A stretch of 64,000 nt of DNA. Source: an uncultured Candidatus Saccharibacteria bacterium. Lineage in GTDB: Bacteria; Patescibacteriota; Minisyncoccia; Phycocordibacterales; CSBR16-119. This document shows positions 3,869 through 31,488 of this stretch, piece after piece (the stretch's first letter is position 1; every line of letters starts with the position of its first letter). The stretch spans positions 3,612 to 67,611 of the forward strand of contig CAZPVH010000005.1 of assembly GCA_964589975.1 (NCBI GenBank), given 5' to 3'. The translations under genes and the position numbers were made by a program. The notes under the pieces were generated by a model, which was not told where the DNA came from, made no database searches, and saw nothing but the letters and a program-made list of their open reading frames with translations.

Positions 3869-4153
3869 CTATGCTGGTGACATAGAGGAGCTTTCATCAT
3901 CCCAGTCGTCGTCTGCATTAGATTGACCCAATCCGAAATCTCGAACCGGATCAGGGTTCATCAGCTTAATAGTTTCTTCACCAGCACCACAACTAGGGCA
4001 GGTCATTTCATGTTGTTCGTCTTCGTCACCATCCTCATCTTCCCAAAACATTGAACCCGTAAAGCGCCATTTCCAATCAAGTCCAGCGGCAACTCTTCCA
4101 CATCCGCCAAACTTAGGTGCACATATGAAGATTCTCTGCTTACTGTGACACAT
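3869..4153 (-). CDS. Small zinc-ribbon protein with acidic tail, paralog 1
   Basis: 94 aa, MCHSKQRIFICAPKFGGCG ... CPSCGAG ... DPVRDFGLGQS followed by an Asp-rich tail. Clear tandem paralog of 3550..3810. Confidence 0.5.
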   Translation of the reverse strand: MCHSKQRIFICAPKFGGCGRVAAGLDWKWRFTGSMFWEDEDGDEDEQHEMTCPSCGAGEETIKLMNPDPVRDFGLGQSNADDDWDDESSSMSPA

Positions 4154-4327
4154 GGTTGGTTTGTTTTTAAGGTTCTTTTACCTATATTATGCGTAATAAA
4201 TTAAACTTTGTCATTTTTTATATTTATATGGAGTGATAAATAGCTTTATATATCAAGATATTTTAACGATTTTATAATTGTTGTCAGAATTATTGACAAA
4301 AACTTTATTTTTTATTACACTTTAGAC

Positions 4328-5053
4328 ATGAACGAAGAAAAAGCCTTAAAATACTTCGGGCTTACTAATAAAGAATCCGCTGTATATTTGGCGCTTTTGA
4401 GCTTGGGAAGTTCGAATGTTACCGCTATTTCTACTACGGCAAAGATCAAACGTCCGACAACATATCTCATTTTAGAAGACCTCCGGAAGAAAGAATTGGT
4501 TTTGAAAGTCCCCCACGCGAAAAAGGCTATCTATACCGCCGTCGAACCAGATCATTTCTTCCATTCAAAGCTTGGAGATTTCAAAGAAGCCTTCAATGTC
4601 CTGCCAAAACTGAAAGCTCGATACAAAACCGAAGCAAAAGTTTCGACATCATATTTCGAAGGCGAAGAAGGGATAGAAGATGCGTTGTTTTATAAAAAAG
4701 ATGAATTAAAAGATTCTGAAATCGTCGGATTCTTCGCAAAGGGAACAAAAGTTAGCGAAAAACTTCTAGATGTCTCGCACGAATGGCGCAAAGAGATGAA
4801 GAAGCGAAACGTGACGCTCCGCGGTATCGCTCCAGAACACGAGACGCTCGAATCATTCCGTAAAACCGACAAAGATCTTGACCAAGTTTTCAAAAGCGTC
4901 GGTCTGGATGAATATTCATCAGATGTCTCGATAGAAGCCACGAATTCATTCGTCCGTATCGTCCTATTTGATTCGAAACAGGCAATCATTATTGAAAGTC
5001 CGGCTGTTGTGAAAACCGTTCGTGAAATCTTCGAGATGGTCTGGAAAAAATAA
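4328..5053 (+). CDS. TrmB-family HTH transcriptional regulator, paralog 1 of 4
   Basis: N-terminal winged-helix signature (ESAVYLALLSLG...ISTTAKIKRPTTYLILEDLRKKELV) similar to three other ORFs in the window (11446..12192, 19745..20506, 41379..42101). TTGACA-17-TACACT promoter upstream and a terminator hairpin at 5067-5095. Confidence 0.7.
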   Translation: MNEEKALKYFGLTNKESAVYLALLSLGSSNVTAISTTAKIKRPTTYLILEDLRKKELVLKVPHAKKAIYTAVEPDHFFHSKLGDFKEAFNVLPKLKARYKTEAKVSTSYFEGEEGIEDALFYKKDELKDSEIVGFFAKGTKVSEKLLDVSHEWRKEMKKRNVTLRGIAPEHETLESFRKTDKDLDQVFKSVGLDEYSSDVSIEATNSFVRIVLFDSKQAIIIESPAVVKTVREIFEMVWKK

Positions 5054-5128
5054 ATTAATTGTGAAATGAAAAACCCCGCACAAGGCGGGGTTGGGAATCT
5101 TTAACCATCTCCCTAGGTTCTGTTGGAC

Positions 5129-5377
5129 TCAAACAGTGTTAGCCTCTCGACCAACTTCCTGCTTCGTCTTGTCCGTCATCCTCTTAACGTCTTCATGAAG
5201 TCTTTCTACTTGGTCCTTCATGATCTCGCAGGCGAGCAGGTGGATTTGCTTGCACTCCGGATTGTCGAGGTCCTCGGTGACTTCGGCAAGCGATTTTTTC
5301 ACTTTATCGAAGGCTTCCCGTATCCGCTTTTCCAGGATGGCCTCAACGAACTTAAGGGCGGCTTCTTTCTTTTCCAT
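5129..5377 (-). CDS. Small hypothetical protein, 82 aa (start placed at MEKKEAALKF after the conserved CA-rich leader)
   Basis: ORF preceded by E1 copy A plus the shared CA-rich leader. Charged, helical-looking sequence. Confidence 0.35.
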   Translation of the reverse strand: MEKKEAALKFVEAILEKRIREAFDKVKKSLAEVTEDLDNPECKQIHLLACEIMKDQVERLHEDVKRMTDKTKQEVGREANTV

Positions 5378-5415
5378 GATGGGTCTGGTTTGTTGGTTTT
5401 TGTTTAAAGAACGTT

Positions 5416-5481
5416 CCACTCTTTGAAAACTCGAATCACTTCAAGTTCTCAAAAGTGGAGGCCAGCTGAGCAGGCCTCTTA
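5416..5481 (-). promoter_or_regulatory. E1 module copy A: terminator hairpin + approximately 46-bp imperfect palindrome + CA-rich leader
   Basis: CCACTCTTTGAAAACTCGAATCACTTCAAGTTCTCAAAAGTGGAGG followed by the hairpin GAGGCCAGCTGAGCAGGCCTC. Near-identical to copy B at 6861-6923. Confidence 0.55.
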
Positions 5482-5484
5482 CTT

Positions 5485-6279
5485 CTAGCCAGTGATCTCA
5501 TTGACCATGGCCTTGTGCGTCTCGACGATAAAGGGGTTGTCCTTGTCGTAGAGACCAACCGTGCTCGGCAAGATTGCTCGTGCAATCGTAATGAGCTCTT
5601 TGCGAGACAGATTCTCTGCATCAATAGCAATCAGGGCGAGACGCTCCTTCAAGCTTTTCGATGAAATCCATGCGGCCATCAAGCTTTCAAGCGCAGTCGC
5701 AACATGTTCGGGCATACCACTTGTTACCGGACCCTTCACCGCTACACTCTCAGAAATCTGAAAGTTTACAATGAAGCCGGGGGTGGTAGCTCGTCCACTC
5801 AACTGTTTGTGCTGTACCGCATAACCTCGTGATTCCACCAGAGCATAGAGCTTTGCTTCTTCAGCCTTGTTGTGAACATTCAGCTGGATTCGCAAGTGTC
5901 CCTTTTTGTCGAGACTTGGAAAATATTTCTTGACCCGTGGCTTGCACAAGGTGAGAAAATCATCCAAGTCTGGATTCAGAAAGGAATATGGTACAGCCCA
6001 GATCCGAGAGACCTTCCCGTCTTCGTGAATGTCGAACCTGACGCGAAGAGACCGGAATAATTCTTCCGACGTCGTTTTCTGTAGATCGAAGACCAAACGA
6101 AAACCTTCTTTGATTTGGGTTTGCTCAATGATCTTCGGCTCTACCAAGACTCCCTCTTTCTCAAGGAAACGTCTTTTAAGCTCCGATGCCAAGTTGATCA
6201 AAAGACTCCGGCCAGCGTGACCATGATCGTAAAGACCAAGGCAACCGGCTTTCGGTACAAGTTTTTTATACTGACGCAT
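5485..6279 (-). CDS. Hypothetical protein, 264 aa, driven by E2 copy b
   Basis: Long clean ORF. The start lies about 67 nt downstream of the E2 repeat on the minus strand. No family recognised. Confidence 0.5.
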   Translation of the reverse strand: MRQYKKLVPKAGCLGLYDHGHAGRSLLINLASELKRRFLEKEGVLVEPKIIEQTQIKEGFRLVFDLQKTTSEELFRSLRVRFDIHEDGKVSRIWAVPYSFLNPDLDDFLTLCKPRVKKYFPSLDKKGHLRIQLNVHNKAEEAKLYALVESRGYAVQHKQLSGRATTPGFIVNFQISESVAVKGPVTSGMPEHVATALESLMAAWISSKSLKERLALIAIDAENLSRKELITIARAILPSTVGLYDKDNPFIVETHKAMVNEITG

Positions 6280-6346
6280 GGTTTCTGCTTTTATGTAAAA
6301 GTGCTGACCTACAGACTACCACTTTTGTGGTAATTTGTCAATGTTA

Positions 6347-6408
6347 CCCTAAAGATTCGCGAACTGAATTCGTGAACCTTATAGAGAGGGGAAAGCTTTG
6401 CTTTCCCC
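6347..6408 (-). promoter_or_regulatory. E2 module copy b: hairpin + conserved 42-bp element with two near-palindromic TTCGYGAAC 9-mers
   Basis: CCCTAAAGATTCGCGAACTGAATTCGTGAACCTTATAGAGAG plus the hairpin GGGGAAAGCTTTGCTTTCCCC. TTGACA-17-TAGTCT lies just downstream on the minus strand. Confidence 0.55.
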
Positions 6409-6544
6409 TAGCGAGAGCGTTCGCTGGTGTTTGCCAGCACACAGTCATATTGAGGTTGGATTTCTCCAATACCCCGCTCTCTAAGTGTGCCCAGAAATGA
6501 GCCGATCTCGGCTTTGTGCTCCGGATGGGTCGCCGGCTGCGTCC

Positions 6545-6814
6545 TTACGCGCCTTCGTCGACGCTTACTCGCTCGACTCGGCCATACTTCTCGAGGATAC
6601 GAGACATTTCTGCCACGAATTCCTCAAAAGAAGTGAAGTGATCCTCGACCCACGGATTGCATCCGGCAGTCTTCTGGCATCCCGCCACAAAGGTGTTGAC
6701 CCGAGGCCGATAACCAGCCATCGCAGAAATTTCACACAGCCTATCTACGACTTGGAAATTCTCGTAGGTTTGGACAGCCAGACGAAGCTTCGTGATCTCA
6801 GAAATCATGATCAT
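6545..6814 (-). CDS. Small hypothetical protein, 89 aa (MIMISEITKL...); start placed after the E1-B leader
   Basis: Protein-like tail of the over-long ORF-track entry 6545..7261. The ATG sits directly after the conserved leader CTTTAAAACAAAAC...ACCCAC. Confidence 0.4.
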   Translation of the reverse strand: MIMISEITKLRLAVQTYENFQVVDRLCEISAMAGYRPRVNTFVAGCQKTAGCNPWVEDHFTSFEEFVAEMSRILEKYGRVERVSVDEGA

Positions 6815-6860
6815 GTGGGTTTTAATCTGACCGTTTTGTTTTAAAGAGCTCTGAGTGTTT

Positions 6861-6923
6861 CCACTCTTTGAAAACTCGAATTGCTTCAAGTTCTCAAAAG
6901 TGGAGGCCCGCCGAGCGAGCCTC
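6861..6923 (-). promoter_or_regulatory. E1 module copy B
   Basis: Differs from copy A by 2 nt in the core. The downstream leader on the minus strand, CTTTAAAACAAAACGG..AAAACCCAC-ATG, is conserved. Confidence 0.55.
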
Positions 6924-6938
6924 TCCTTCTTCGTGCAC

Positions 6939-7124
6939 CTAATCACTCTCGTTGCGATCGTTGATCGCATCCTGCATGTCGACCAAGCTGTGCAGCTTGT
7001 CGTCACGGTTGGTCTCGCAGGATCGCGACGAGGCAACCAGCCACTCGTTACGGGACGAACGCTCGTCCGCGCAGGCGAACTGCTCGTCAAAGAAGCTCCC
7101 GCAACAGACTTGTCGGTATACCAT
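6939..7124 (-). CDS. Small Cys-rich hypothetical protein, 61 aa
   Basis: ORF-track entry. The start lies about 40 nt downstream of E2 copy c on the minus strand. Contains CC and C-x-x-x-C. Confidence 0.3.
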   Translation of the reverse strand: MVYRQVCCGSFFDEQFACADERSSRNEWLVASSRSCETNRDDKLHSLVDMQDAINDRNESD

Positions 7125-7164
7125 GGTGGTGGGGGTGTTAGGTGGGTTATGTAAAGGTACAATT

Positions 7165-7235
7165 CCCTAAAGATCCGCGAACTGAATTCGTGAACCTTAT
7201 AGAGAGAAGAATATAGTCGTGAGAAAATATTCTTC
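7165..7235 (-). promoter_or_regulatory. E2 module copy c
   Basis: CCCTAAAGATCCGCGAACTGAATTCGTGAACCTTATAGAGAG (1 mismatch versus copy b) plus the hairpin GAAGAATATAGTCGTGAGAAAATATTCTTC. Confidence 0.55.
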
Positions 7236-7389: not shown

Positions 7390-7683
7390 CTACAGGATCG
7401 GCAGATCCAAGGCTTCTCGGAAGAGCGCCTTGATCTCCTCGTCGGACATCTCCGACTTCGGCTTCGAAAGTCCGACCCAGAGAGTACGTCCGCCTCGCGG
7501 GAAGCGGTCATGCAGGTGGCCGTAGTCAACCTCGAGCTTCTTCACCTTAACCACGCTTCGCACATGATAGATGCGAGCTTGGCACGTCGAGCAGTGTCCC
7601 TGCTCGGCGACCTCGAAGTAGAGGCAGCCTTCATGTTCCAAGATCTCACGGCGAGTCTGCCATCCGGCAAGTGCAACCATCAT
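7390..7683 (-). CDS. Small hypothetical protein, about 97 aa (start at MMVALAGW after a CA-rich leader)
   Basis: The conserved leader TTAAAACAAAAAAACCAAAACCCCCCACACCC runs immediately into ATGATG. The upstream residues of the ORF-track entry are leader translation. Confidence 0.4.
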   Translation of the reverse strand: MMVALAGWQTRREILEHEGCLYFEVAEQGHCSTCQARIYHVRSVVKVKKLEVDYGHLHDRFPRGGRTLWVGLSKPKSEMSDEEIKALFREALDLPIL

Positions 7684-8049
7684 GGGTGTGGGGGGTTTTG
7701 GTTTTTTTGTTTTAAGGAACATTTCTGTTTCGCTCTTTTGAGCTCATCAGCGCGAACATACATTCGCGGACAGACAGGAGGAGACAGTGACGTCTCCTCC
7801 CCAGCGTAGAGAGTGATCATCTCTCTATCGCTGTACCCATTTTTTTCTTGTACATGACGGTACAATTGTCGCTTACGAGATCCGTGTCTCGCTGGGGTGC
7901 GCAACAAGAGCTTTTTCCTTCACGGGTTTTTGGTTGTGATTGCAACCATCTATCCGTCTTTGGGCTGGCGCTCAAGCCCTCGCAGTTTCTTCTAAAGAAC
8001 TTTCCCTTCTTCGTAGGCACTTCACTTCAAACTCAAGCCGATATCGCAC

Positions 8050-8388
8050 TTACTGAACGACACAATGGAGAAAAAGCGTGTCATTCATCCACCTGTGTAC
8101 AGTATCTAGCTCATCAATCAGCCTACTGGGGCCATCCCCGCAATCGGCATAATGGAAATCGGCTGAGCTGAAACGATTGATGTCTGACCCTACTACCTGA
8201 CACGTTTGAAGATAGAGCTGATAGTGCTCCCTCGTAAACGGGAATCCTACCAGATGCTTATTTCGCGTCTGGTCTACAAGACAAGACAACTTGGCAAACA
8301 ATCTTGCGATTGTTGGCGCATTGAAGCCGTTGATCATTGTGTCGGCGTATATTGTCATATCACCGACCTTTAAAGTGACTGCCTCCAT
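8050..8388 (-). CDS. Hypothetical protein, 112 aa, driven by E2 copy a
   Basis: Clean ORF. E2 repeat 36-75 nt upstream on the minus strand. Confidence 0.45.
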   Translation of the reverse strand: MEAVTLKVGDMTIYADTMINGFNAPTIARLFAKLSCLVDQTRNKHLVGFPFTREHYQLYLQTCQVVGSDINRFSSADFHYADCGDGPSRLIDELDTVHRWMNDTLFLHCVVQ

Positions 8389-8423
8389 TTTTGCTTTTTA
8401 ATGTACAAGTAATCGGGCGCAGA

Positions 8424-8491
8424 CCCTAAAGATTAACGAACAGAATTCGTAAACCTTATAAGGGGGAGGAGATGTTACAGCATCTCCTCCC
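8424..8491 (-). promoter_or_regulatory. E2 module copy a (more diverged)
   Basis: CCCTAAAGATTAACGAACAGAATTCGTAAACCTTATAAGGGGG plus the hairpin GGAGGAGATGTTACAGCATCTCCTCC. Abuts the 15-nt motif AAGTAATCGGGCGCAG. Confidence 0.5.
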
Positions 8492-8693
8492 TGCAGACTT
8501 CATCGACCACCCGCCTTCAGGGTGGGTCTGCTCGATCCAACTTTATTCCCCCAACATTACTTTTCGCCTGACTTGTCCGGCGACAAAAAGCAGTCGGGGC
8601 CCAGATAATCTAGCTTTGCTCTTAGGCAGCAAAGTGTCGACTGTCCTTCTTGCGGATTGGAATCCCGCTTGTGCATCGTTTTGGAAAGAACTT

Positions 8694-8757
8694 CCACATT
8701 TGAAAATTCGAATGTCTTCAAATACTCAAATGTAGGGAGAAGGCTTTGCCTTCTCCC
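8694..8757 (-). promoter_or_regulatory. E1 module copy C (diverged), immediately downstream of rsr
   Basis: CCACATTTGAAAATTCGAATGTCTTCAAATACTCAAATGTAGG plus the hairpin GGGAGAAGGCTTTGCCTTCTCCC. Followed on the minus strand by a 39-codon ORF (8557..8676). Confidence 0.45.
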
Positions 8758-8833
8758 ACAGATCTACCCCGGAGCCCCCGCCCCTCGATCTGTTTATTAC
8801 ACACCTATGGGCATAGGTGGCGAACGCCCGAGC

Positions 8834-10441
8834 TCACTTGCAGAAGTCTGCGATGAGGCTCGGCACGTTGGAGTCAAACCCAACCAGGTCGAGCATGCCA
8901 GCGTCACTAGGGTCTGCAATACTGAAGTCCGTGGACATCGTAGAGCAGACAACCAGCTTCGCGGGAATGCCCATCTCCTGTCGGTACCGCTTGAGCGCCT
9001 GAGACGGGTGGATTTCTCCAGCCCACGTCTCGTTATCCGTCCAGATCTGAAAAACGTCGACCGGAGTCTTCGCCCTCAGAGCATGGAGGATCGGCAGCGA
9101 GCAGTCGGTACCACCGAAATTGAGACCGTTCACCGCATGCATGTTGTCATCGAGCCTCTTGCGAGGTGAGACGTTCATGTCCTGCAGGCCGGTTCCACTT
9201 CTCCATCCGCGGTCAGCGGAAGTAAAAGCTTTCAGGTGATAGTTGCTTTCGGTCTTCATGACCGCCATGATCATAGCCATTGAGGCCTGCATAGCATTCA
9301 TGAATGGCATCCCAGCAACAGGGCTGTCCCACATCGAGCCGGACACATCCAGTCCGACGAAGATCCTCTTCCCGGTCGCTTCCAGATTCCCGAAGGAACC
9401 GTAGAAAGCGGCGTCAAGAATATCGATCACTCGCTGGACCGGCTTCCAGGTCAATGAGCCGCGCGCGCTCTTCCCGCTTGCGTACGTCACCAGTGCGGCG
9501 AGTACGTTCACAGGGTGGATCCTGGCCTTTTTCAAAGCGACAGGATCCGCGAGCTTCTGCTCGACGACTTTGAGCGCTCCGCTCATCGGCACAATGAGGC
9601 CGTTAGCCGTCATGCGCGCCAAGTTACGAAGCACCGCGGTCATCGGCATACCGGGCAAGAGGGCTTCCCATACCTTCGGGTCGCCGAGGAGCTCGGTTGG
9701 AACGAGCTCCCAGGTTACGCCTTGGTAGTCACCGATGATCTTCACCGCTTCCGCTGCCGTGGTGGCCGCTTGAAGCTTGGTGAAGGCCTCGATGATTTTC
9801 GGGACGCCATCCCCCATCTTTTCCTGAGCCACCCAACGGAACAAGTCCTGGTGCGCTTCGGAAGACGAGTGACTCTTGCGGAGCAGGTCGCGAAGCGACC
9901 AGCCCGAGCGTTGACGATATTTGACAGCTTGGTATGCCAGCTTCTCAGCCGACATGCTCGTCAAATATCCTGCCCAGCCGTTACGGTACTGACGGCTCCA
10001 CGTTCTGCCGAGCTGTTTCGCATTTTCAGCGAAAGCATAGGCGAACGAAAGAGTCCGGAGGACCGCAGGCATGGCCATAAGCGCATACTTCCTGGTTGCC
10101 TCATCGGCAAACTTCGGAGATGCAGCCATGGCGAGGACGAACAGAGCAGGGTCTTGCTTTGCAGCGCGACCCTCCGTCGAAAGTTCGACGACCGTGTCAA
10201 CGACACGCTTTCCGTTCATCTTCAAGCAACGCTGCACGGCTTCGGCATTATCAGTCGTGAGCTCGCGCCCGCCGACGTAGTAGCTGCCGCCGTCGCTACC
10301 AAGGATAATGAACCGCTCAAGGCGCTTCCAATCATCTACCGGGTAAGCGAAACCCCCGGCATTGTTCATCACCATGTTCGATCCTGGAATCGGAGCGTCT
10401 TGTGACGTCCTTTCCGTAGAAAAGTGCTGGGTGTATCTCAT
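8834..10441 (-). CDS. rsr: Ro60-like RNA-binding protein Rsr (TROVE domain with C-terminal vWA/MIDAS domain)
   Basis: N-terminal NNAGGFAYPVDDWKRLERFIILGSDGGSYY matches the conserved TROVE N-terminus of Ro60/Rsr. C-terminal LDVSGSM (a DxSxS MIDAS motif) with downstream T and D residues. GC-rich relative to neighbours. Its 5' leader is the same CA-rich leader used by the adjacent small genes. Confidence 0.8.
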   Translation of the reverse strand: MRYTQHFSTERTSQDAPIPGSNMVMNNAGGFAYPVDDWKRLERFIILGSDGGSYYVGGRELTTDNAEAVQRCLKMNGKRVVDTVVELSTEGRAAKQDPALFVLAMAASPKFADEATRKYALMAMPAVLRTLSFAYAFAENAKQLGRTWSRQYRNGWAGYLTSMSAEKLAYQAVKYRQRSGWSLRDLLRKSHSSSEAHQDLFRWVAQEKMGDGVPKIIEAFTKLQAATTAAEAVKIIGDYQGVTWELVPTELLGDPKVWEALLPGMPMTAVLRNLARMTANGLIVPMSGALKVVEQKLADPVALKKARIHPVNVLAALVTYASGKSARGSLTWKPVQRVIDILDAAFYGSFGNLEATGKRIFVGLDVSGSMWDSPVAGMPFMNAMQASMAMIMAVMKTESNYHLKAFTSADRGWRSGTGLQDMNVSPRKRLDDNMHAVNGLNFGGTDCSLPILHALRAKTPVDVFQIWTDNETWAGEIHPSQALKRYRQEMGIPAKLVVCSTMSTDFSIADPSDAGMLDLVGFDSNVPSLIADFCK

Positions 10442-11021
10442 GACGAGGGTTTTTGGTTAGGTTTGTTTTTTGAAAGACCGGAGAGACCAGAAGCGGATAA
10501 GGTGTGAAGAAAGGGTTAAAGATGGCGGCCAAAGCTCGCCATCCAGGTCAAATATTTGGGTAACCTTCCTTCTTCGACCCGCTTCTGGTCTCAATTATCA
10601 ATGCTCGAAACATGCTTTCGAGCGGATTTTGAGAGAAATATTAGTGATTTCTTCCAAAATCCGCCCAAGAGCCAACTGTATACTAATCAATCGAAGCCAT
10701 ATAAATATATTTTGCTTGATCCAGATCAGTTTTGTTGCTGTTGTTTTGAGACTGTTCTAAATGTTTCTGGGTAAAGCTTAGCAGATTCGAAATGATTTGT
10801 CAAGTATTTTTGTCGAGAATTCTATTTTTTGTCAGAATAGCCTTATTTTACAACATATTTTTGTTTATGTAAAAAAACAAAAATTGACTATTTTTATTTA
10901 TTCTTGAAAATATTTTTGCAAATAAAATAATTATTTTTCTAATACGTCAAAGATTGTTTTTGAATGAAAACTTATAAAATCTTGCAGTGAAATACTTTTT
11001 TGGAACTAATTTAAATATAGT

Positions 11022-11440
11022 TGACAAAAAATGACATGTCTGATATACTCCCCCCAGATGTGATTCATAGCTCAAGCGTTCATGGGAAGCGGGTTATCTG
11101 CATAGACAAAGAGAAATCTACGCAGAAATGATGGGTATCCAGACAATTACGATGACTGGAACCCAGATGTGAACAGTCACAGAACCGTCCCACACCTAAC
11201 CTCACGGCCATGAACGACTAGGGAGCACCCGTCCTGCATCCGCCAGCCCACCCTTTGTGGGCGGCGGATGCGGAAGGGTCACCTCGAGCAATCAATTCGC
11301 AGTAAGCACATGCACGACTAGAACAGAAGACATGGAAAACCTCATTGGAAATGGTCAGGATCACTACCCCTGACCACGCACCACAGTCATGAATGACTGA
11401 AGAGAACAAGAGCCCGCAACGGATGTTGCGGGCTCTCTTT
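11022..11440 (+). ncRNA. Candidate structured non-coding RNA (about 390 nt) with its own sigma70-like promoter and intrinsic terminator; class unknown
   Basis: TTGACA (11022-11027), 17 bp, TATACT. No ORF over 25 codons on the plus strand. Strong internal hairpins (11236-11275, 11364-11387). Ends in a GC hairpin plus T-run at 11404-11440. The motif CATGMAYGACTRG occurs three times. Confidence 0.5.
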
Positions 11441-11445
11441 TTTAT

Positions 11446-12192
11446 TTATTTGGATCCGCCAAAGGCGAGCTTGAACAAACTTCGGAGCGTTTCAGCCACA
11501 TCAGCGCTTTTTATAAAAATCGTACCAGCATGCTTGCCGAATATGTGAATCCTAACGCTTTCATTGTATATTCCAATTTCCGCTTTTATAGGATATTTTT
11601 CAGGATCTATCCTCTTTCTGTCCATTGTTATATCGGATGTATACTCGCCTTTGGAATATGAGTAGATTGAAACTATTTTTACGTTTTTTTCAATTCTTTT
11701 TTTCTTTACAGGCTCAAGCTCTTTTGGAGTAAAACTCTTCTCCACTTCATCGCGCGGATAAATCACATACATGAGACCGCCTTCTCCTCCGTCAAACATA
11801 TTTCTTGCCGATCGCAGAATCTCTTCCTGACCAGTGTAGTATTCGACGATGGGCCTCTCGCCAAGTCCTCTTGCCACTGCTTTGAATTTCGGGACCATAT
11901 CTTTTACGATCTTCGACTGTTCTGAAAGTTTTATCTTCTGCTCCTCTATATAGCTCTCTATTCTCTCCGGCGGGAGAGCGTGGATGTAAGTTTTTTCATT
12001 TTTCGTTATCTCCTCTACCAAACCTTTTTCAGTAAGAGAATCTATGACTGGATAAATAGTTGTTCTGTTAATTTTAGTTTTTTTGGAAATTTCTGCCACA
12101 TTTGGCTCATCCACCGTCAGCAAGAACATATAGACCTTTGCTTCTTTATCTGACAAACCAACCTCGACGAGAAATTTTTCTAGGTTTTCCAT
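11446..12192 (-). CDS. TrmB-family HTH transcriptional regulator, paralog 2 of 4
   Basis: N-terminus SDKEAKVYMFLLTVDEPNVAEISKKTKINRTTIYPVIDSLTEKGLV. Confidence 0.7.
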   Translation of the reverse strand: MENLEKFLVEVGLSDKEAKVYMFLLTVDEPNVAEISKKTKINRTTIYPVIDSLTEKGLVEEITKNEKTYIHALPPERIESYIEEQKIKLSEQSKIVKDMVPKFKAVARGLGERPIVEYYTGQEEILRSARNMFDGGEGGLMYVIYPRDEVEKSFTPKELEPVKKKRIEKNVKIVSIYSYSKGEYTSDITMDRKRIDPEKYPIKAEIGIYNESVRIHIFGKHAGTIFIKSADVAETLRSLFKLAFGGSK

Positions 12193-12939: not shown

Positions 12940-14019
12940 ATGACTACCGGCAAACCTCCTCCGACCAGAATTCAGATCTTCATAGATGGACGAAACTTTT
13001 ATCATGTAAGCCGACACTACCGCTTCGATCACCCTGTTGGAAGTTTCATCAATCTCCGCGGACTTCAGGGATTCATACGCAAAAAGGTCGCAGAATTTCT
13101 AGGCATGGAACTTGAAGCTGCAACGATCACCAGGTGCCACCTGTTCATGGGAACAGACAGAGATAAAAAGGATGCCTTGCACGAGATCCTTCGAAACCGT
13201 GGCGTTCGACTTCACTGGCACGCTCTCGTAAAAAGAGAAGACGGACAAAAGAAAGAACTTGGTGTCGATGTTGGCTTGGCGACATCCGCACTGTCCGCTG
13301 CCTATGAAGACAAGATGGATGTGATGGTACTGCTCGGCGCAGACGGCGACTTCTACCCCGCAATCGCCCAAGTCCAGCATCTAAAGAAAAAAGTGGTGCT
13401 CGCATTCTGGGATATTCTGCCTTCTCCGAACAACAAGCTCTCGAAGCGCATAACCACAAGCAATTCATTGATACGGATGGCGGATTTCATCATCAATATG
13501 CGCGTGGAGATGAACGCGATGCTGGAAGGGCAAACCGAGGAAGCAAAATTTATCTTCGGGACCAAAGGCGAAAACTTCACCCCGACGGAAAATCAAGTCT
13601 ATCAAGACGTCTCTCCGGTCACTCCGCCAGAGACAACCCAACCACGTCCGCAAAAACCTCCGATCACTCCAGCTCCAACAGTGCACAAGGCTCCCGAGCA
13701 GCCACGTGCGCCCAAGGTAGCTGACAAGAAGCCCGTTCCAACACTGAACCCAAAACAACACGAAAGACGGAAACGAAGAGAGTCTCCGAAGTTCGATACC
13801 ACCAAACAGCGCGGCAGAATCACTCAGAAGAATAACAATGTCGGCTACATTCTCCCGCTTGAAGGAAAAGAACTGATCCCTTTCCTCAAGTATGATCTGA
13901 AACTTACCAACACCGACTTTGACGCTCTCTCTGCCGGATCTTTGGTGGAGTACACAGTTGCCAAGGGGGCCCGAGCCGGCAAGGATCTGGCCACCAACAT
14001 CTGCATCGTACATGAATAA
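12940..14019 (+). CDS. NYN-domain (LabA/PIN-like) ribonuclease fused to a C-terminal cold-shock-like domain, paralog 1
   Basis: IFIDGRNFYH ... GVDVGLATSA ... DVMVLLGADGDFYPAI is characteristic of NYN/LabA. The C-terminus GRITQKNNNVGYILP...FLKYD...GSLVEYTVAKGARAGKDLATNI resembles a CSD/S1 fold. A Pro-rich linker sits between the domains. Confidence 0.65.
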   Translation: MTTGKPPPTRIQIFIDGRNFYHVSRHYRFDHPVGSFINLRGLQGFIRKKVAEFLGMELEAATITRCHLFMGTDRDKKDALHEILRNRGVRLHWHALVKREDGQKKELGVDVGLATSALSAAYEDKMDVMVLLGADGDFYPAIAQVQHLKKKVVLAFWDILPSPNNKLSKRITTSNSLIRMADFIINMRVEMNAMLEGQTEEAKFIFGTKGENFTPTENQVYQDVSPVTPPETTQPRPQKPPITPAPTVHKAPEQPRAPKVADKKPVPTLNPKQHERRKRRESPKFDTTKQRGRITQKNNNVGYILPLEGKELIPFLKYDLKLTNTDFDALSAGSLVEYTVAKGARAGKDLATNICIVHE

Positions 14020-14103
14020 GAAGCGCCGCCCACCCGGGCGGCGCTTTTTGACAAACAACATTTTATAAGTACTATATGTCACAGACAAAACACGTAAAGC
14101 ACC

Positions 14104-14973
14104 ATGAAAACAGACAGCCCTTTGCGCGCAGGGGTGTTTATTGACGGTACATATTTTGGCATCGTAAATAAGCACTACCAAGACCTTCCGGGATTACAAA
14201 AACCAATAGATCATGCCGGGCTACTCTCGTTCCTCCAACGACAAACAGCAGAATTACTCAGTGTCACAAGAGATGGCCTGACTATCACCCGGCGTCACAT
14301 GTATCTTGGGCTCCCTTTAGGAGCAAGCATCTCCAACATGCGATGGCAACAAGAAGCAATGCTCAAAGTCGACATTGATCTCCAGCACTTCCCCATAAAG
14401 AATAACGGCGGAGGAATAGCAAAAGAACAAGGCGTCGATGTGGCATTAGCCTGGGACGCCGGCTACGAGTCTTCGAAACTCGACGTCTACATACTCATCA
14501 CCGGTGATGGGGATTTCATTCCCCTAGTCGATAAGCTGCAGAGTATTGGGAAAAAGGTAATCCTGGCATACTGGCATGTCGGCTCCGAACCGGGCAAAAC
14601 CTCTCGTACCAATACCGACCTCATCAGATCCGCAACACACTCTGTCAACATGAGACAAAAGATAGAGGTTGGCCTAGCGAGCGGAGACAAGCATATCTGT
14701 AAAATCTTCGGCCCCAATCATCAAATACCCGAAGCAAAACCGAAAAAGAATGGCGCACTCGAAATATTCGAAGGAGTCATTCTCTCTCAAACGACAACGG
14801 GGGGCCGCATCAGAAAGATTCCGATCGGAAACAAGAAGAGAACATTGGTATTTTTCAAGGAAGAGGTGGAGGGCGCGCCGTTCAAACACTTTGAACCAGA
14901 TCGCAAGGTTCAATTTTCCATTGTTTACGAAAACAACATGAAACGAGCTATCCACGTAAAGCTCATCGCATAG
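14104..14973 (+). CDS. NYN-domain ribonuclease fused to a C-terminal cold-shock-like domain, paralog 2
   Basis: VFIDGTYFGIV ... GVDVALAWDAGYE ... DVYILITGDGDFIPLV. C-terminus EGVILSQTTTGGRIRKIP...FFKEE...QFSIVYENNMKRAIHV. Same architecture as the upstream gene. Confidence 0.65.
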   Translation: MKTDSPLRAGVFIDGTYFGIVNKHYQDLPGLQKPIDHAGLLSFLQRQTAELLSVTRDGLTITRRHMYLGLPLGASISNMRWQQEAMLKVDIDLQHFPIKNNGGGIAKEQGVDVALAWDAGYESSKLDVYILITGDGDFIPLVDKLQSIGKKVILAYWHVGSEPGKTSRTNTDLIRSATHSVNMRQKIEVGLASGDKHICKIFGPNHQIPEAKPKKNGALEIFEGVILSQTTTGGRIRKIPIGNKKRTLVFFKEEVEGAPFKHFEPDRKVQFSIVYENNMKRAIHVKLIA

Positions 14974-15011
14974 CACAACCGAAACGCCAGCTTCTTAGGA
15001 AGCTGGCGTTT

Positions 15012-16526
15012 TTATTTCACTTTATATTCGTCCCGGATTTTTTTTATTTCTTCTCCTTCGGCATCGTCCTTTGCGCTCTTCCCCGCCTCGCCGAGCTTCC
15101 GGAGGTGCTCATCTGTCATTTCCAGTAATTGCTTGGCGCGAGTCTGTAGGTATTCTTCGGTATTTTTATTCGGATCGTCTAAGACTTCTTCTAGGAGTGC
15201 ATGAAGCGTCCAGCTGAAGCGCGGCCCCGGTTTCTCCCCCATCTCTTTCAGCTTATTGCCATCAATCTTGAGCATCCCGACGTTGATCGGATCACGCATC
15301 ACTTCTTCAATCATGGACTCAAATTTCCTGAGGCGATACGGCTCCTCCTTCGGGCGGCCCATCCCAATCCTGTCGCAGATCCTGAGGTCTATGAGGTCCC
15401 AAACGTTCTCGGCGCCAACTTTCGCGACCAATCTCCGCACGGCCGAAAGCGTGATCTGATCCGTGTCAGAGAAAAACATGTGATACCGAACGAGTCGATA
15501 AATTTTTTCCGTGAAGTCGCTCCCCATTTTAAGCCTCTCGCAAATTTTCCGCGCGAGCTTTCCGCCCACCACGTCGTGGCCATAAAACGTGTAATCATTT
15601 TTTTCTTTGGACCATTCTCTGGTATGAGGTTTCGCGATATCGTGCAGAAGTCCCGCAAGCCGGATATGGAGCGGCCAGTCTTTATCCGCCGCGTGTTGCA
15701 TAGTGCGGAGATTGTGTTCCCAGACATCATAAATGTGTTCCCCGTTTTGTTCGACACCAATGCCGATTTCGAGCTCGGGAATAATATATTTCAAGATTCC
15801 AAGTTTCTGCGCCATCGAAATACCGACAATTGGTTCCGGCGCCATGAGCATTTTGAGAAACTCATCGCGAATACGTTCGGCGGAAATATTTTTGAGGAGA
15901 TCAACATGCTTTGCCATAGCCATCATCGTTTCGGCCTCTATCACAAATCCGTGCTGCGTTGAAAATCTAACAGCGCGTAAAATTCGGAGCGCATCTTCCT
16001 GAAAACGCTCCTCAGCATTTCCGACTGCCTTGATCATCTTATCTTTGATTGCCTCCCTACCATCGTACAGGTCAACAAGCTCTCCGCTCGCTGGATCATA
16101 GGCAATGGCGTTCATGGTGAAGTCGCGACGTTTTAGATCGTCGCTTAAAACTTTTGAAAATTTTACTTCGTCCGGATGTCTGTTGTCCGAATAAGCAGAC
16201 TCAAGCCGGTAAGGAGTAACCTCGATAACTTTTAAGGCTTCATCCTCTGTAATCTTATTCTCTACCCCAACTGTACCGAATTTGTTTTCATAAAAAGTAT
16301 CAGGAAAAATACTCTGGATTTCTTCCGGCGTCGCATTAGTGGTTACATCCCAATCTTTCGGGGTTTTGCCGGTTAAAAGATCACGAACACAACCGCCCAC
16401 AATGTAGGCCTCGAAACCGGCCTTTTGAAGACTGTCAGTTACAAGCCGAACTTCGGCTGGAATATTAAAATTTTCCTTTCCATTCATAGTATAGATTTTA
16501 GCAGATGAGACTTCCCTGTTGTGCAC
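15012..16526 (-). CDS. cca: CCA-adding tRNA nucleotidyltransferase with HD domain (true start may be the internal MNGKENFN at about 16487)
   Basis: YIVGGCVRDLLTGKTPKDWDVTT (Pol-beta-like nucleotidyltransferase head) followed by an HD phosphohydrolase region (HDIAKP). Bidirectional terminator at 14976-15011. Confidence 0.8.
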   Translation of the reverse strand: MHNREVSSAKIYTMNGKENFNIPAEVRLVTDSLQKAGFEAYIVGGCVRDLLTGKTPKDWDVTTNATPEEIQSIFPDTFYENKFGTVGVENKITEDEALKVIEVTPYRLESAYSDNRHPDEVKFSKVLSDDLKRRDFTMNAIAYDPASGELVDLYDGREAIKDKMIKAVGNAEERFQEDALRILRAVRFSTQHGFVIEAETMMAMAKHVDLLKNISAERIRDEFLKMLMAPEPIVGISMAQKLGILKYIIPELEIGIGVEQNGEHIYDVWEHNLRTMQHAADKDWPLHIRLAGLLHDIAKPHTREWSKEKNDYTFYGHDVVGGKLARKICERLKMGSDFTEKIYRLVRYHMFFSDTDQITLSAVRRLVAKVGAENVWDLIDLRICDRIGMGRPKEEPYRLRKFESMIEEVMRDPINVGMLKIDGNKLKEMGEKPGPRFSWTLHALLEEVLDDPNKNTEEYLQTRAKQLLEMTDEHLRKLGEAGKSAKDDAEGEEIKKIRDEYKVK

Positions 16527-31290: not shown

Positions 31291-31488
31291 GAGAGGGAGT
31301 ATATACTAGACATAAAAATAAATCAATGCGTGGTGAGCGAAAGTTGCGAGAAAAAATTAGAGTCGTGTATAATTCAATCCACGTTCAGAGTTTTCCACAG
31401 CAATCCACACGTTGTTCACATTTTCAAAATTATCCCCAGAAAAGTTCTGCGTATATAATATCTTTCATAATATTTTAAATCTTTAACT
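31291..31488. promoter_or_regulatory. dnaA upstream region with a DnaA-box cluster (part of the origin region)
   Basis: TTTTCCACA (31390-31398), AATCCACAC, TGTTCACAT and TTATCCCCA are close to the TTATNCACA consensus. AT-rich. Confidence 0.5.

What the first reader, a model, noticed from the sequence alone, without database searches (positions are those of the whole stretch)
10442..10600. rsr shares a G-free CA-rich 5' leader with four small island genes but has a different upstream palindrome
Immediately 5' of the rsr ATG the minus strand reads TCTTTCAAAAAACAAACCTAACCAAAAACCCTCGTC-ATG. This parallels the leaders after E1 (TCTTTAAACAAAAACCAACAAACCAGACCCATC-ATG, CTTTAAAACAAAACGG..AAAACCCAC-ATG and TTAAAACAAAAAAACCAAAACCCCCCACACCC-ATG). 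These are Shine-Dalgarno-less leaders composed almost only of C and A. Upstream of the rsr leader sits a distinct 14-bp perfect inverted repeat (GAGACCAGAAGCGG ... CCGCTTCTGGTCTC, 10479-10593) enclosing another hairpin. A shared CA-rich leader suggests a common translational control, for example S1-dependent or SD-independent initiation, or a binding site for one RNA-binding regulator.
Basis: seen in the sequence. Interest (0 to 1): 0.6.

Follow-up and report, generated by a model that had tools for sequence, protein, structure and literature searches.

The report
Y RNA gene and SD-less leader before rsr
The "palindrome" in front of the Ro-protein gene rsr is the gene for its partner Y RNA, and the C/A-rich stretch before the start codon is the unstructured leader without a ribosome-binding site (Shine-Dalgarno, SD) that this candidate-phyla-radiation (CPR) bacterium uses for genes that follow folded RNA elements; both are members of known kinds.

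Summary
The sequences exist as described, with small coordinate errors.

**Palindrome.** It is the closing stem of a roughly 110-nt Y RNA at 10483-10592(-). It carries the Rsr-binding motif GUCGAAG, a bulged C and a GGUUACC box. A covariance model built only from 67 Y-like RNAs next to rsr in other bacteria finds this one site in the whole 64-kb window (45.8 bits, E 6e-8).

**Leader.** It is the 41-nt spacer between the Y RNA and the rsr AUG.
- The host is a Parcubacteria/Paceibacterota (CPR) bacterium. Only 1 of 46 non-island genes has an SD-like match, and G is depleted upstream of genes generally. So "SD-less and G-poor" is organism-wide and does not mark a regulon.
- C-richness (C+A >=0.8 in 4/7 island genes against 3/46 others) and a 5' box YCYUUMAAAMMAAAM are specific to the island.
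- In the island every cistron follows a stable RNA module: the Y RNA, a type III hammerhead ribozyme (7722-7776), or the repeats E1 or E2.
- E1 plus a GUUCUUU box recurs in other metagenome contigs, once beside another hammerhead.
- Folding predicts the CA leaders keep the start codons open.

**Verdict.** This is a new member of known kinds, of moderate interest. Rsr binding, ribozyme cleavage and the role of the box are untested.

The parts
10845..10873 (-). Best sigma-70-like promoter candidate for the Y RNA-rsr transcript (TTTACA-17-TAAAAT). A second candidate, TTGACA-17-TAAGCT, lies at 10775-10803.
   Evidence: (10 of 12 matches). This is a consensus match only; the transcription start is not mapped.
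10614..10672 (-). Long hairpin in the 5' untranslated region (26-nt arms, 81% complementary). Its 3' arm overlaps a second small hairpin (GCUCGAAAGC AUG UUUCGAGC). Role unknown.
   Evidence: (inverted repeat I3) and the fold.
10483..10592 (-). Y RNA gene of the stem-bulge type, with no tRNA-like domain. It has a 16-bp lower stem (10577-10592 / 10483-10498), a bulged C at 10576, GA:UU pairs, an AG / CACACC internal loop, an upper stem AAGGAAGG:CCUUUCUU (10564-10571 / 10507-10514), a GGUUACC box (10559-10565) and an apical hairpin (10521-10544).
   Evidence: Model R2, built from 67 non-window RNAs, hits only 10487-10589(-): 45.8 bits, E 6e-8. Folds; coordinates.
10572..10578 (-). GUCGAAG, an exact match to the bacterial Rsr-binding motif GNCGAAN0-1G. 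It sits on the 5' strand at the top of the lower stem.
   Evidence: Motif definition from PMC4201824; position; aligned to the conserved CGGGCCGgAG of the family.
10442..10482 (-). rsr leader: a 41-nt spacer between the Y RNA stem and the AUG. Its 5' box UCUUUCAAAAAACAA is at 10463-10477, followed by a C/A tract ending in ACCCUCGUC. There is no SD.
   Evidence: It is unpaired in the minimum-free-energy fold of the whole 5' untranslated region. Predicted unpaired probability is 0.73, against 0.51 +/- 0.10 when random leaders are substituted.
8834..10441 (-). rsr (Ro60 orthologue), 535 aa.
   Evidence: Pfam TROVE 1e-33 and vWA_Ro60 5e-57. The nearest relatives are only about 52% identical.
8690..8765 (-). 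E1 copy 3: a GC hairpin, then the hairpin CUACAUUUGAGUAUUUGAA/UUCGAAUUUUCAAAUGUGG, then GUUCUUUCC.
8424..8470 (-). E2 copy 3 (UAUAAGGUUUACGAAUUCUGUUCGUUAAUCUUUAGGG), preceded by a variable GC hairpin. It is followed by the leader of the 112-aa gene.
8050..8388 (-). Orphan gene, 112 aa.
   Evidence: No Pfam, PHROGs or PADLOC hit.
7722..7776 (-). Type III hammerhead ribozyme. The predicted cleavage site is after the GUC at 7771-7769. It has stem I CGCGAA/UUCGCG, core CUGAUGA, stem II GCUC/GAGC and GAAA.
   Evidence: Rfam RF00008, 44.2 bits (gathering score 48.5), E 2e-7 and 1e-8. All core nucleotides and the core-adjacent pairs are present.
7684..7718 (-). Leader of the 97-aa gene (UCCUUAAAACAAAAAAACCAAAACCCCCCACACCC). 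It has 0 G and starts 4 nt after the hammerhead.
7390..7683 (-). Orphan gene, 97 aa.
7165..7211 (-). E2 copy 2.
7125..7157 (-). Leader of the 61-aa gene (CCUUUACAUAACCCACCUAACACCCCCACCACC), with 0 G. The last 31 nt before the ATG are identical in the 93%-identical relative L083.
6939..7124 (-). Orphan gene, 61 aa. Its differences from L083 are mostly synonymous.
   Evidence: the substitutions were counted by eye on alignment A6.
6859..6924 (-). E1 copy 2.
6815..6847 (-). Leader of the 89-aa gene (UCUUUAAAACAAAACGGUCAGAUUAAAACCCAC).
6545..6814 (-). Orphan gene, 89 aa.
6347..6393 (-). E2 copy 1. E2 and everything from it to the ATG of the 264-aa gene is almost invariant in L083. Upstream hairpins show compensatory changes.
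5485..6279 (-). Orphan gene, 264 aa. Only one homologue is known, at 95% identity.
5414..5479 (-). E1 copy 1.
5378..5410 (-). Leader of the 82-aa gene (UCUUUAAACAAAAACCAACAAACCAGACCCAUC).
5129..5377 (-). Orphan gene, 82 aa, the last cistron. An intrinsic terminator follows at 5072-5092.
4154..4172 (-). Leader with the same box (CCUUAAAAACAAACCAACC), before the 94-aa gene at 3869-4153. That gene is divergent from the TrmB-family regulator gene at 4328-5053.

Best explanation
The region is the 5' end of an rsr operon inside a roughly 6-kb, higher-GC island in a Parcubacteria-type (CPR) genome.

**Shown**
- The 'palindrome' is the lower stem of a Y RNA gene on the rsr strand. It ends 41 nt before the rsr AUG and carries the conserved Rsr-binding helix: GNCGAAG, a bulged C and G.U/A-U pairs.
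- No terminator-like site was found between the Y RNA and rsr in a consensus scan, and the spacer is only 41 nt. SD pairing is not used by the genes of this window.
- Every island cistron is preceded by a stable RNA module (Y RNA, hammerhead ribozyme, E1 or E2). For five of the seven that module is followed by a G-poor C/A tract; the 112-aa and 264-aa genes have more ordinary A-rich leaders (C+A 0.63).

**Inferred**
- The Y RNA is co-transcribed with rsr and is either excised or stays in the 5' untranslated region. It binds Rsr as other Y RNAs do.
- The C/A tract works as an unstructured landing pad. C and A cannot pair with each other, so the 30-35 nt that a 30S subunit must occupy stay single-stranded next to very stable helices. 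This allows SD-independent initiation, probably helped by ribosomal protein S1, on internal cistrons that cannot be leaderless.
- The leaders resemble each other for three reasons:
  1. the organism-wide rule of no SD and low G;
  2. duplication of the E1 module;
  3. a GUUCUUU/UCUUUA box that marks the 3' edge of the RNA modules. This box most likely acts in RNA processing, pausing or termination rather than as an operator of a dedicated translational regulator.
For: **Y RNA**
- Model R1, built from two Y-like RNAs beside a Saccharibacteria rsr gene, found 67 hits in 80 rsr loci. Sixty-six are on the rsr strand and they cluster next to rsr, mostly upstream.
- Those hits show strong covariation: 94.6% of cells paired, and 292 cells changed on both sides against 88 in shuffles. 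Slid controls give 36-47% paired.
- Model R2, built from those 67 sequences only, gives a single hit in 128 kb of window sequence (both strands): 10487-10589(-), 45.8 bits, E 6e-8.
- The motif GUCGAAG matches GNCGAAN0-1G as defined in PMC4201824. That paper also reports that bacterial Y RNAs lie within 4 kb of rsr on the same strand.

**Host and SD usage**
- DnaA is 78% identical to Candidatus Paceibacterota sequences.
- The anti-SD motif is missing in about half of Parcubacteria (PMC9297842).
- 1/46 non-island genes has an SD-like duplex, against 13% of random sites.
- G is 2-13% at positions -14 to -6.
- 64/70 other rsr genes have an SD core, and 0/70 have C+A >=0.8.

**Island-specific features**
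- C+A >=0.8 in 4/7 island genes against 3/46 others, Fisher p 0.004.
- The box is enriched: 6 occurrences against 1.3 expected.

**Accessibility**
- The native CA leaders give unpaired probabilities of 0.61-0.77 over -25 to +6. Random 35-nt replacements give 0.40-0.51, and 0-3% of them reach the native value.
- The leader is unpaired in the fold of the whole 5' untranslated region.

**Constraint on the non-coding parts**
- In the 93%-identical relative L083, the leader of the 61-aa gene, E2 and the leader of the 264-aa gene are (nearly) invariant, while the coding sequence varies. The leader of the 89-aa gene has one substitution and one deletion.
- Hairpin stems change by compensatory pairs.

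**Modules**
- Hammerhead ribozyme.
- E1 is conserved in five metagenome contigs with compensatory changes.
- GUUCUUU follows E1 and a hammerhead in L087, a contig that uses SDs.
Against: - There are no expression data. Transcript ends, processing of the Y RNA, Rsr binding, ribozyme cleavage and the mode of translation are all untested.
- The 16S rRNA of this organism is not in the window, so loss of the anti-SD is inferred from gene-upstream statistics and from the literature on the group.
- Non-island genes are only slightly more open than random sites (0.49 against 0.44). High accessibility is therefore a property of the island leaders, not a demonstrated requirement of the host.
- The conserved box and the shared 33-36-nt length are more order than a mere 'unstructured spacer' needs. 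They would also fit a specific protein-binding or rRNA-pairing site.
- Two island genes (112 aa and 264 aa) have ordinary A-rich leaders with C+A of 0.63.
Confidence: 0.6

Rival explanations
1. The shared box (UCUUUAAAACAAAAC), together with the ACCC just before the AUG, is the operator of one dedicated RNA-binding regulator. That regulator might be encoded in the island, or might be Hfq-like and recognise AAN repeats. It would co-regulate translation of rsr and the small genes.
For: - The box is enriched: 6 occurrences against 1.3 expected, and 5 of the 6 precede island starts.
- The box-to-AUG distance is similar (33-36 nt) in four leaders.
- The leader of the 61-aa gene is invariant in L083 while coding sequence diverges by about 7%.
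- The same box precedes the 94-aa gene at 3869-4153, outside the operon.
Against: - Two of the leaders are copies of one repeat, so their similarity may be inherited rather than selected.
- The 5' half of the box follows E1 and a hammerhead in L087, in front of sequence that is not a C/A leader and in a genome that uses SDs.
- The box of the 89-aa gene tolerates a C-to-U change, and the ACCC run of that leader loses one C, in L083.
- No RNA-binding domain was found in any island protein.
Confidence: 0.15
2. The Y RNA acts in cis as an autoregulatory operator. Rsr bound to the Y RNA module while it is still part of the rsr mRNA, 41 nt from the AUG, hinders 30S loading on the leader or triggers decay. 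Rsr would thereby limit its own synthesis.
For: - The Y RNA lies inside the rsr 5' untranslated region, and the consensus scan found no terminator-like site between them.
- In 18 of 70 other rsr loci, the 5'-strand Ro-site motif GGGYCGRR lies within 40 nt of the rsr start, often overlapping the SD. In 7 of them it forms a permuted copy of the Ro-binding helix. This suggests Rsr commonly contacts its own mRNA leader.
Against: - The argument is purely positional.
- Y RNAs precede rsr at variable distances in most loci.
- The Y RNA may be cut out quickly.
- 41 nt leaves room for a 30S subunit.
Confidence: 0.15
3. The inverted repeat is not an RNA gene. It would be a transcription terminator or attenuator, or a DNA operator for the neighbouring TrmB-family regulators.
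For: - It is a long perfect palindrome between a regulator gene and rsr.
- A U-rich stretch (UCUUUC) follows 5 nt after the stem.
Against: - The match to the Y RNA model includes unpaired, strand-specific features (bulged C, GAAG, CACACC, GGUUACC) and occurs on one strand only.
- The arms are 82 nt apart and enclose conserved helices, which is unlike an operator.
- The consensus scan did not call it a terminator.
Confidence: 0.03

Closest known systems
Bacterial Y RNAs (Yrn1 of Deinococcus radiodurans; YrlA/YrlB of Salmonella; Chen et al. 2014, PMC4201824)
   Same: - It is encoded next to rsr on the same strand.
- Its 5' and 3' ends pair in a long stem.
- The GNCGAAN0-1G motif sits at the top of that stem.
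- It is modular, with a conserved stem and a variable apical part.
   Different: - It has no tRNA-like T/D-arm domain, so it is not YrlA. It is closer to the short YrlB type.
- It sits inside the rsr 5' untranslated region, 41 nt from the AUG.
- The host is a CPR bacterium.
- The pair next to the bulged C is U-A, whereas 65 of 67 relatives have C-G there.
Metazoan Y RNAs and nematode stem-bulge RNAs (Rfam RF00019, RF01656)
   Same: - The lower helix with a single bulged C, followed by G.U/A-U pairs, an asymmetric internal loop, an upper stem and then a GUUAYC-like box.
- RF01656 scores 47 bits on the homologous RNAs beside a Saccharibacteria rsr gene.
- The Ro60 site is described as a helix plus a bulged C in PMC4726728.
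   Different: - The window RNA itself does not reach E<=10 with any Rfam family.
- It is presumably a bacterial transcript made as part of an mRNA, not an RNA polymerase III product with a U tail.
- Homology as opposed to convergence is not settled.
SD-independent translation on unstructured A/C-rich leaders. From my own knowledge, not checked here: the TMV omega (CAA)n leader and the T7 gene 10 'epsilon' UUAACUUUA enhancer, both working in E. coli through protein S1; 'local absence of structure' in genes without an SD; Bacteroidota-type leaders.
   Same: - No SD, with a G-poor, single-stranded region of about 30-35 nt before the AUG.
- The leader contains a CUUUA-like element and CAA/AAC repeats.
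   Different: - Here it occurs in a lineage where the anti-SD itself is often lost (PMC9297842).
- It is used specifically for cistrons that follow stable RNA modules.
- Function is inferred from folding predictions only.
Hammerhead ribozymes that flank single genes in prophage-like polycistronic transcripts (Perreault et al. 2011, PMC3088659). From my own knowledge: RNase III sites between the phage T7 early genes, and the synthetic RiboJ insulator.
   Same: - A structured processing element lies between every pair of small genes in one long transcript.
- One of these elements is a canonical type III hammerhead placed directly before a leader.
   Different: - Most of the modules here (E1, E2) are not known ribozymes, and no nuclease site has been shown.
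- No phage genes are recognisable, and there is an rsr/Y RNA pair at the head of the operon.

Membership tests
Bacterial Y RNA | Encoded within about 4 kb of rsr, usually on the same strand | tested here: met
   The 3' end of the stem is 41 nt upstream of the rsr ATG, on the same strand.
Bacterial Y RNA | The 5' and 3' ends pair to form a long closing stem | tested here: met
   A 16-bp stem; the fold is -57.9 kcal/mol with z -6.7. The stem is retained in the fold of the 419-nt 5' untranslated region.
Bacterial Y RNA | GNCGAAN0-1G motif near the 5' end (the Rsr contact) | tested here: met
   GUCGAAG at 10578-10572.
Bacterial Y RNA | Sequence and structure similarity to Y RNAs found beside other rsr genes | tested here: met
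   Model R2, built without any window sequence, gives 45.8 bits and E 6e-8, and it is the only hit in the window. The family shows covariation.
Bacterial Y RNA | Bound and stabilised by Rsr in vivo | not testable with these tools
   Needs immunoprecipitation or a gel-shift assay.
YrlA subfamily (tRNA-like Y RNA) | Internal domain with T-arm and D-arm mimicry | tested here: not met
   No tRNA-model or ARAGORN hit in 10400-10900. The apical part is GGUUACC plus one GC hairpin.
Hammerhead ribozyme, type III | Core C3 U4 G5 A6 N7 G8 A9, G12 A13 A14, A15.1-U16.1 and H17, with paired positions next to the core in stems I-III | tested here: met
   The alignment shows GUC|, CGCGAA..UUCGCG, CUGAUGA, GCUC..GAGC and GAAAC. 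The criteria are quoted from PMC3088659.
Hammerhead ribozyme, type III | Reaches the Rfam gathering score | tested here: not met
   44.2 bits against a gathering score of 48.5, although E is 1e-8 to 2e-7. Stem II is only 4 bp.
Hammerhead ribozyme, type III | Self-cleavage | not testable with these tools
   Needs in vitro transcription.
SD-independent (unstructured-leader) initiation | No SD:anti-SD pairing upstream of the start | tested here: met
   Duplex energies are +2.2 to -2.9 kcal/mol for the island leaders. Genome-wide in the window, 1/46 genes reaches <=-6.
SD-independent (unstructured-leader) initiation | The start region is predicted to be single-stranded | tested here: met
   Unpaired probability is 0.61-0.77 for the five CA leaders, against 0.40-0.51 with random leaders. 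This is an in-silico result only.
SD-independent (unstructured-leader) initiation | The host 16S rRNA lacks the anti-SD | not tested
   There is no rRNA gene in the window. The literature reports the anti-SD motif detected in only 48% of Parcubacteria 16S rRNAs.
Regulon-specific leader or operator | The motif is confined to a gene set and absent from other genes | tested here: inconclusive
   The box is confined to the island plus one neighbouring gene. SD-less, G-poor composition is general. Part of the box belongs to the E1 and hammerhead modules elsewhere.

The most novel reading that the evidence does not exclude
The island may show a so far undescribed way of building operons in SD-less CPR bacteria. 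Each cistron would be delivered as a cassette made of an RNA module (Y RNA, hammerhead, E1 or E2), a GUUCUUU box and, for most cistrons, a C/A landing pad. E1 and/or E2 would be new RNA-processing elements, possibly a new self-cleaving class, since they occupy the same position as the hammerhead and E1 co-occurs with hammerheads in other contigs. Processing would free mRNAs whose 5' ends are capped by a folded RNA. In addition, Rsr may regulate its own mRNA through the embedded Y RNA.
Probability: 0.2. Interest if true: 0.7.

Novelty: new member of a known kind. Interest (0 to 1): 0.4.

Why it matters
- The result turns an unexplained palindrome into an annotated non-coding RNA gene. It extends the rsr/Y RNA pair to a Parcubacteria-type CPR genome, where almost nothing is known about RNA quality control.
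- Y RNAs of the metazoan or nematode stem-bulge design (bulged C, GUUAYC box) sit beside rsr in many bacterial phyla: 67 hits in 80 loci.
- The region is a compact natural example of how internal cistrons may be translated in a lineage that has given up SD pairing.
- The same operon holds a hammerhead ribozyme and two conserved, structure-constrained repeats (E1, E2). These are reasonable targets for anyone looking for new processing RNAs.
- The headline claim, that the leader marks a regulon, is mostly an organism-level and repeat-level effect.

Tried and rejected
- **Rfam on the window and on 7800-11500.** No Y RNA family reaches even E<=10 for the element, so I had to build a custom model.
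- **First helix/motif regex scan.** It was far too permissive, giving hundreds of hits. The tightened version served only to spot true examples.
- **Genome-collection scan.** It did not return the source genome, so neither the organism's name nor its 16S rRNA could be obtained.
- **Close relatives of this rsr.** There are none; the next best is 52% identical. So there is no direct comparative test of this particular Y RNA or its leader.
- **Island proteins.** No Pfam, PHROGs or PADLOC family matched. The 264-aa protein has a single homologue.
- **E1 and E2 in viral contigs.** No matches.
- **E2 in metagenome contigs.** No matches.
- **The two flanking TrmB-family genes.** They are only 24% identical, so they are not an insertion duplication.
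- **A further hammerhead core elsewhere in the window.** The only other pattern match, at 47574, looks like chance.
- **The GUUCUUU box after Y RNAs elsewhere.** It is not a general feature: 8 of 67.
- **Strand composition as an explanation for the C-rich leaders.** Rejected. The coding (minus) strand is G-rich relative to C in this region.
Full report
**1. What is in the sequence**

- On the minus strand, rsr runs from 10441 to 8834. It encodes a 535-aa protein with TROVE and Ro60-vWA domains.
- In their last 30 nt they contain 0-3 G, and C+A makes up 73-100%. None can pair with an anti-SD.
- The 14-bp inverted repeat is real, but its arms are at 10579-10592 and 10483-10496. It extends to 16 bp.
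- The 131-nt segment folds at -57.9 kcal/mol, z -6.7 against shuffles.

**2. The organism, and whether the leader is special**

- The window is bacterial. It carries DnaA, PolA, a class A penicillin-binding protein, RNase Y and a CCA-adding enzyme.
- Its DnaA is 78% identical to Candidatus Paceibacterota sequences, and up to 98% identical to unnamed metagenome proteins. The host is therefore a Parcubacteria-type CPR bacterium.
- A published survey detected the anti-SD motif in only 48% of Parcubacteria 16S rRNAs (PMC9297842).
- The window agrees with that:
  - Of 46 genes outside the island, only one has an SD-like duplex of -6 kcal/mol or better, against 13% of random positions.
  - G falls to 2-13% at positions -14 to -6, while A rises to 45-60%.
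- The SD-less, G-poor character is therefore organism-wide.
- It is not a property of rsr either. Of 70 other rsr genes, 64 have a GGAG-type core and none has a leader with C+A >=0.8.
- The island leaders are nevertheless distinct in two ways:
  - They use C where host leaders use U (A 47%, C 33%, G 7%, U 13%, against 38/18/14/30). C+A >=0.8 occurs in 4/7 island genes against 3/46 others, p 0.004.
  - They share a 5' box, YCYUUMAAAMMAAAM. It is found 6 times against 1.3 expected, and 5 of those precede starts between 4159 and 10477. In four of them it lies 33-36 nt from the AUG.
- Local strand skew goes the other way, so it does not explain the C-richness.

**3. The palindrome is a Y RNA**

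- Chen et al. (PMC4201824) showed that bacterial Y RNAs lie within 4 kb of rsr on the same strand. They carry GNCGAAN0-1G near the 5' end as the likely Rsr contact.
- The element has GUCGAAG exactly where the 16-bp stem ends.
- Rfam gave nothing for it. In a Saccharibacteria rsr locus (L006), however, two tandem 67-nt RNAs just upstream of rsr hit the nematode stem-bulge RNA family RF01656 at 47 bits.
- A model built from those two RNAs (R1) found 67 matches in 80 rsr loci from many phyla. Sixty-six are on the rsr strand and they cluster next to rsr, mostly upstream.
- Their alignment shows 94.6% pairing and 292 cells changed on both sides, against 88 in shuffles. Slid controls give 36-47% pairing.
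- A second model built only from these 67 sequences (R2) was run on the window. Its only hit in 64 kb, on either strand, is 10487-10589(-) at 45.8 bits, E 6e-8. Nothing else in the island scores above 8 bits even with filters off.
- The alignment assigns these parts:
  - lower stem;
  - bulged C;
  - GA:UU pairs;
  - an AG / CACACC internal loop;
  - an 8-bp upper stem, AAGGAAGG:CCUUUCUU;
  - a GGUUACC box (family consensus GGGUUAUC).
- This matches the Ro60 site described for vertebrate Y RNAs, a helix with a bulged cytidine (PMC4726728).
- There is no tRNA-like domain, so it is not a YrlA. Rsr binding itself is inferred.

**4. The leader in context**

- The rsr leader is the 41-nt spacer between the Y RNA stem and the AUG.
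- The region from the candidate promoters (10775-10873) to the AUG folds strongly (z -6.3), with the last roughly 22 nt unpaired.
- Downstream of rsr lie six orphan genes on the same strand (112, 97, 61, 89, 264 and 82 aa), ending at a terminator at 5072-5092.
- The intergenic regions are 107-445 nt long and densely structured. They contain:
  - three copies of repeat E1;
  - three copies of repeat E2;
It scores 44.2 bits against a gathering score of 48.5, E 1e-8. Core and core-adjacent pairs are intact by the criteria of PMC3088659.
- Every cistron therefore follows a stable RNA module.
- The two leaders after E1 copies 1 and 2 are part of one duplicated 66-nt unit, 91% identical.

**5. Evidence that the non-coding parts are functional**

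- A Logan contig (L083) is 93% identical over 6277-7210.
- Coding differences are mostly synonymous.
- The leader of the 61-aa gene, E2, and everything from E2 to the start of the 264-aa gene are invariant or nearly so.
- Two hairpins differ by compensatory pairs: GCUGG..CCAGC becomes GUCGG..CCGAC, and GGGGAAAGC..GCUUUCCCC becomes GGGGAAGG..CCUUCCCC.
- E1 has five relatives in metagenome contigs. Across the eight copies, 94.7% of cells pair and four pairs show changes on both sides. Two G.U pairs are invariant, which marks it as an RNA of this strand.
- In L086, E1 separates small genes that have CA-rich, SD-less leaders.
- In L087, E1 and a second type III hammerhead are both followed by GUUCUUU, although that contig uses SDs. 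A TrmB-family gene is adjacent there, as it is on both flanks of the island here.
Only the C/A tract tracks SD-less hosts.
- The box does not generally follow Y RNAs elsewhere (8 of 67).

**6. Mechanism**

- Folding predicts that the CA leaders keep positions -25 to +6 open, with unpaired probability 0.61-0.77.
- Random 35-nt replacements in the same context give 0.40-0.51, and only 0-3% of them reach the native value.
- My reading follows.
  - In a host without SD pairing, promoter-proximal genes can be short-leadered or leaderless.
  - Cistrons that follow very stable RNAs need a stretch that cannot be drawn into structure.
  - A tract made of C and A provides this, over roughly the length a 30S subunit covers upstream of the start.
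- Co-transcription of the Y RNA with rsr, excision of the modules (by the hammerhead, and possibly by nucleases at E1 or E2), and S1-type initiation are all inferences.
- The conserved box and the fixed spacing leave room for a specific factor (rival 1).
- The position of the Y RNA leaves room for autoregulation by Rsr (rival 2). That idea gains some support from other loci: 18 of 70 place the Ro-site motif GGGYCGRR within 40 nt of the rsr start, often overlapping the SD.

**7. Verdict**

SD-independent translation is right. The regulon marker is mostly not: it is largely explained by host-wide and repeat-level effects.
- The unexplained palindrome is a Y RNA.
- Both main features are new members of known kinds.
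- The unusual part is the assembly: Y RNA, hammerhead, E1, E2 and C/A leaders in one operon of a CPR genome. That is worth an experimental look.
- Interest 0.4.

Noticed in passing
window 7722-7776 (-): A complete type III hammerhead ribozyme lies between the 112-aa and 97-aa genes, 4 nt before a CA-rich leader. It scores 44.2 bits in Rfam (gathering score 48.5), E about 1e-8. All core positions are present, and cleavage is predicted after the GUC at 7771-7769.
   Followed up: partly
window 5414-5479, 6859-6924, 8690-8765 (-); L084-L088: Repeat E1 consists of a terminator-like GC hairpin, a 19-bp hairpin and a GUUCUUU box. It has homologues in five metagenome contigs, with compensatory changes and invariant G.U pairs. 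In L087 it shares a strand with another hammerhead. L086 has a second, diverged copy at about 2720-2790.
   Followed up: partly
window 6347-6393, 7165-7211, 8424-8470 (-): Repeat E2 consists of a variable hairpin followed by the conserved UAUAAGGUUCACGAAUUCAGUUCGCGAAUCUUUAGGG. Conservation stops right at GGG. A second shared box, ACYUKUACAUWA, precedes the start codons. E2 is invariant in the 93%-identical relative L083. No match was found in the viral or metagenome scans, and no Rfam family matches.
   Followed up: partly
L009, L012, L023, L027, L038, L041, L048 and others, 0-40 nt upstream of rsr: In 18 of 70 other rsr loci, the 5'-strand Ro-binding motif GGGYCGRR lies within 40 nt of the rsr start, often overlapping the SD (GGGCCGGAGG). 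In 7 loci it forms a circularly permuted Ro-site hairpin (CUUGCCCC-loop-GGGGCCGAA). This may be an operator for autoregulation by Rsr.
   Followed up: partly
L005, L007, L010, L016, L018, L025 (upstream of rsr): Many rsr genes are preceded on the same strand by arrays of up to about 20 tRNA or tRNA-like genes, interleaved with tandem Y-like RNAs. Some 'tRNA' hits are 120-200 nt long and may be YrlA-type RNAs.
   Followed up: no
L006 5761-5827, 5848-5916: Two tandem Y-like RNAs beside a Saccharibacteria rsr gene exceed the gathering score of the nematode stem-bulge RNA family RF01656 (47 bits against 38). This means bacterial and metazoan-type Y RNAs share sequence-level features (GGGCCGAAG, GGGUUAUC, CAACUUG).
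   Followed up: yes
window 10614-10672 (-): A long hairpin lies upstream of the Y RNA. Its 3' arm overlaps a second possible hairpin (GCUCGAAAGC..UUUCGAGC), so the two structures may be mutually exclusive. A weak promoter-like site (TCGAAA-16-GATAAT, 10594-10621) overlaps it.
   Followed up: no
window 4328-5053 (+) and 11446-12192 (-); L087 2706-3482: TrmB-family regulator genes flank the island and are 24% identical to each other. Another TrmB-family gene sits next to the E1/hammerhead operon in L087. This suggests a recurring association between this regulator type and these cassettes.
   Followed up: partly
window 12940-16526: Just beyond the island lie two NYN-domain (nuclease-type) genes and a CCA-adding enzyme gene, so rsr sits in a neighbourhood rich in RNA-metabolism genes.
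   Followed up: no
window 8559-8675 (-): A possible 38-codon ORF (MHKRDSNPQEG...) starts 13 nt after the GUUCUUU box of E1 copy 3, inside the 445-nt spacer between rsr and the 112-aa gene. It is unclear whether it is translated.
   Followed up: no
window, e.g. 4290-4327 (+), 31450-31488 (+): Many non-island genes have AT-rich, promoter-like sequence running right up to the ATG (for example TTGACAAAA..TTACAC..ATG). This suggests very short or absent leaders as a second SD-independent mode in this organism.
   Followed up: no
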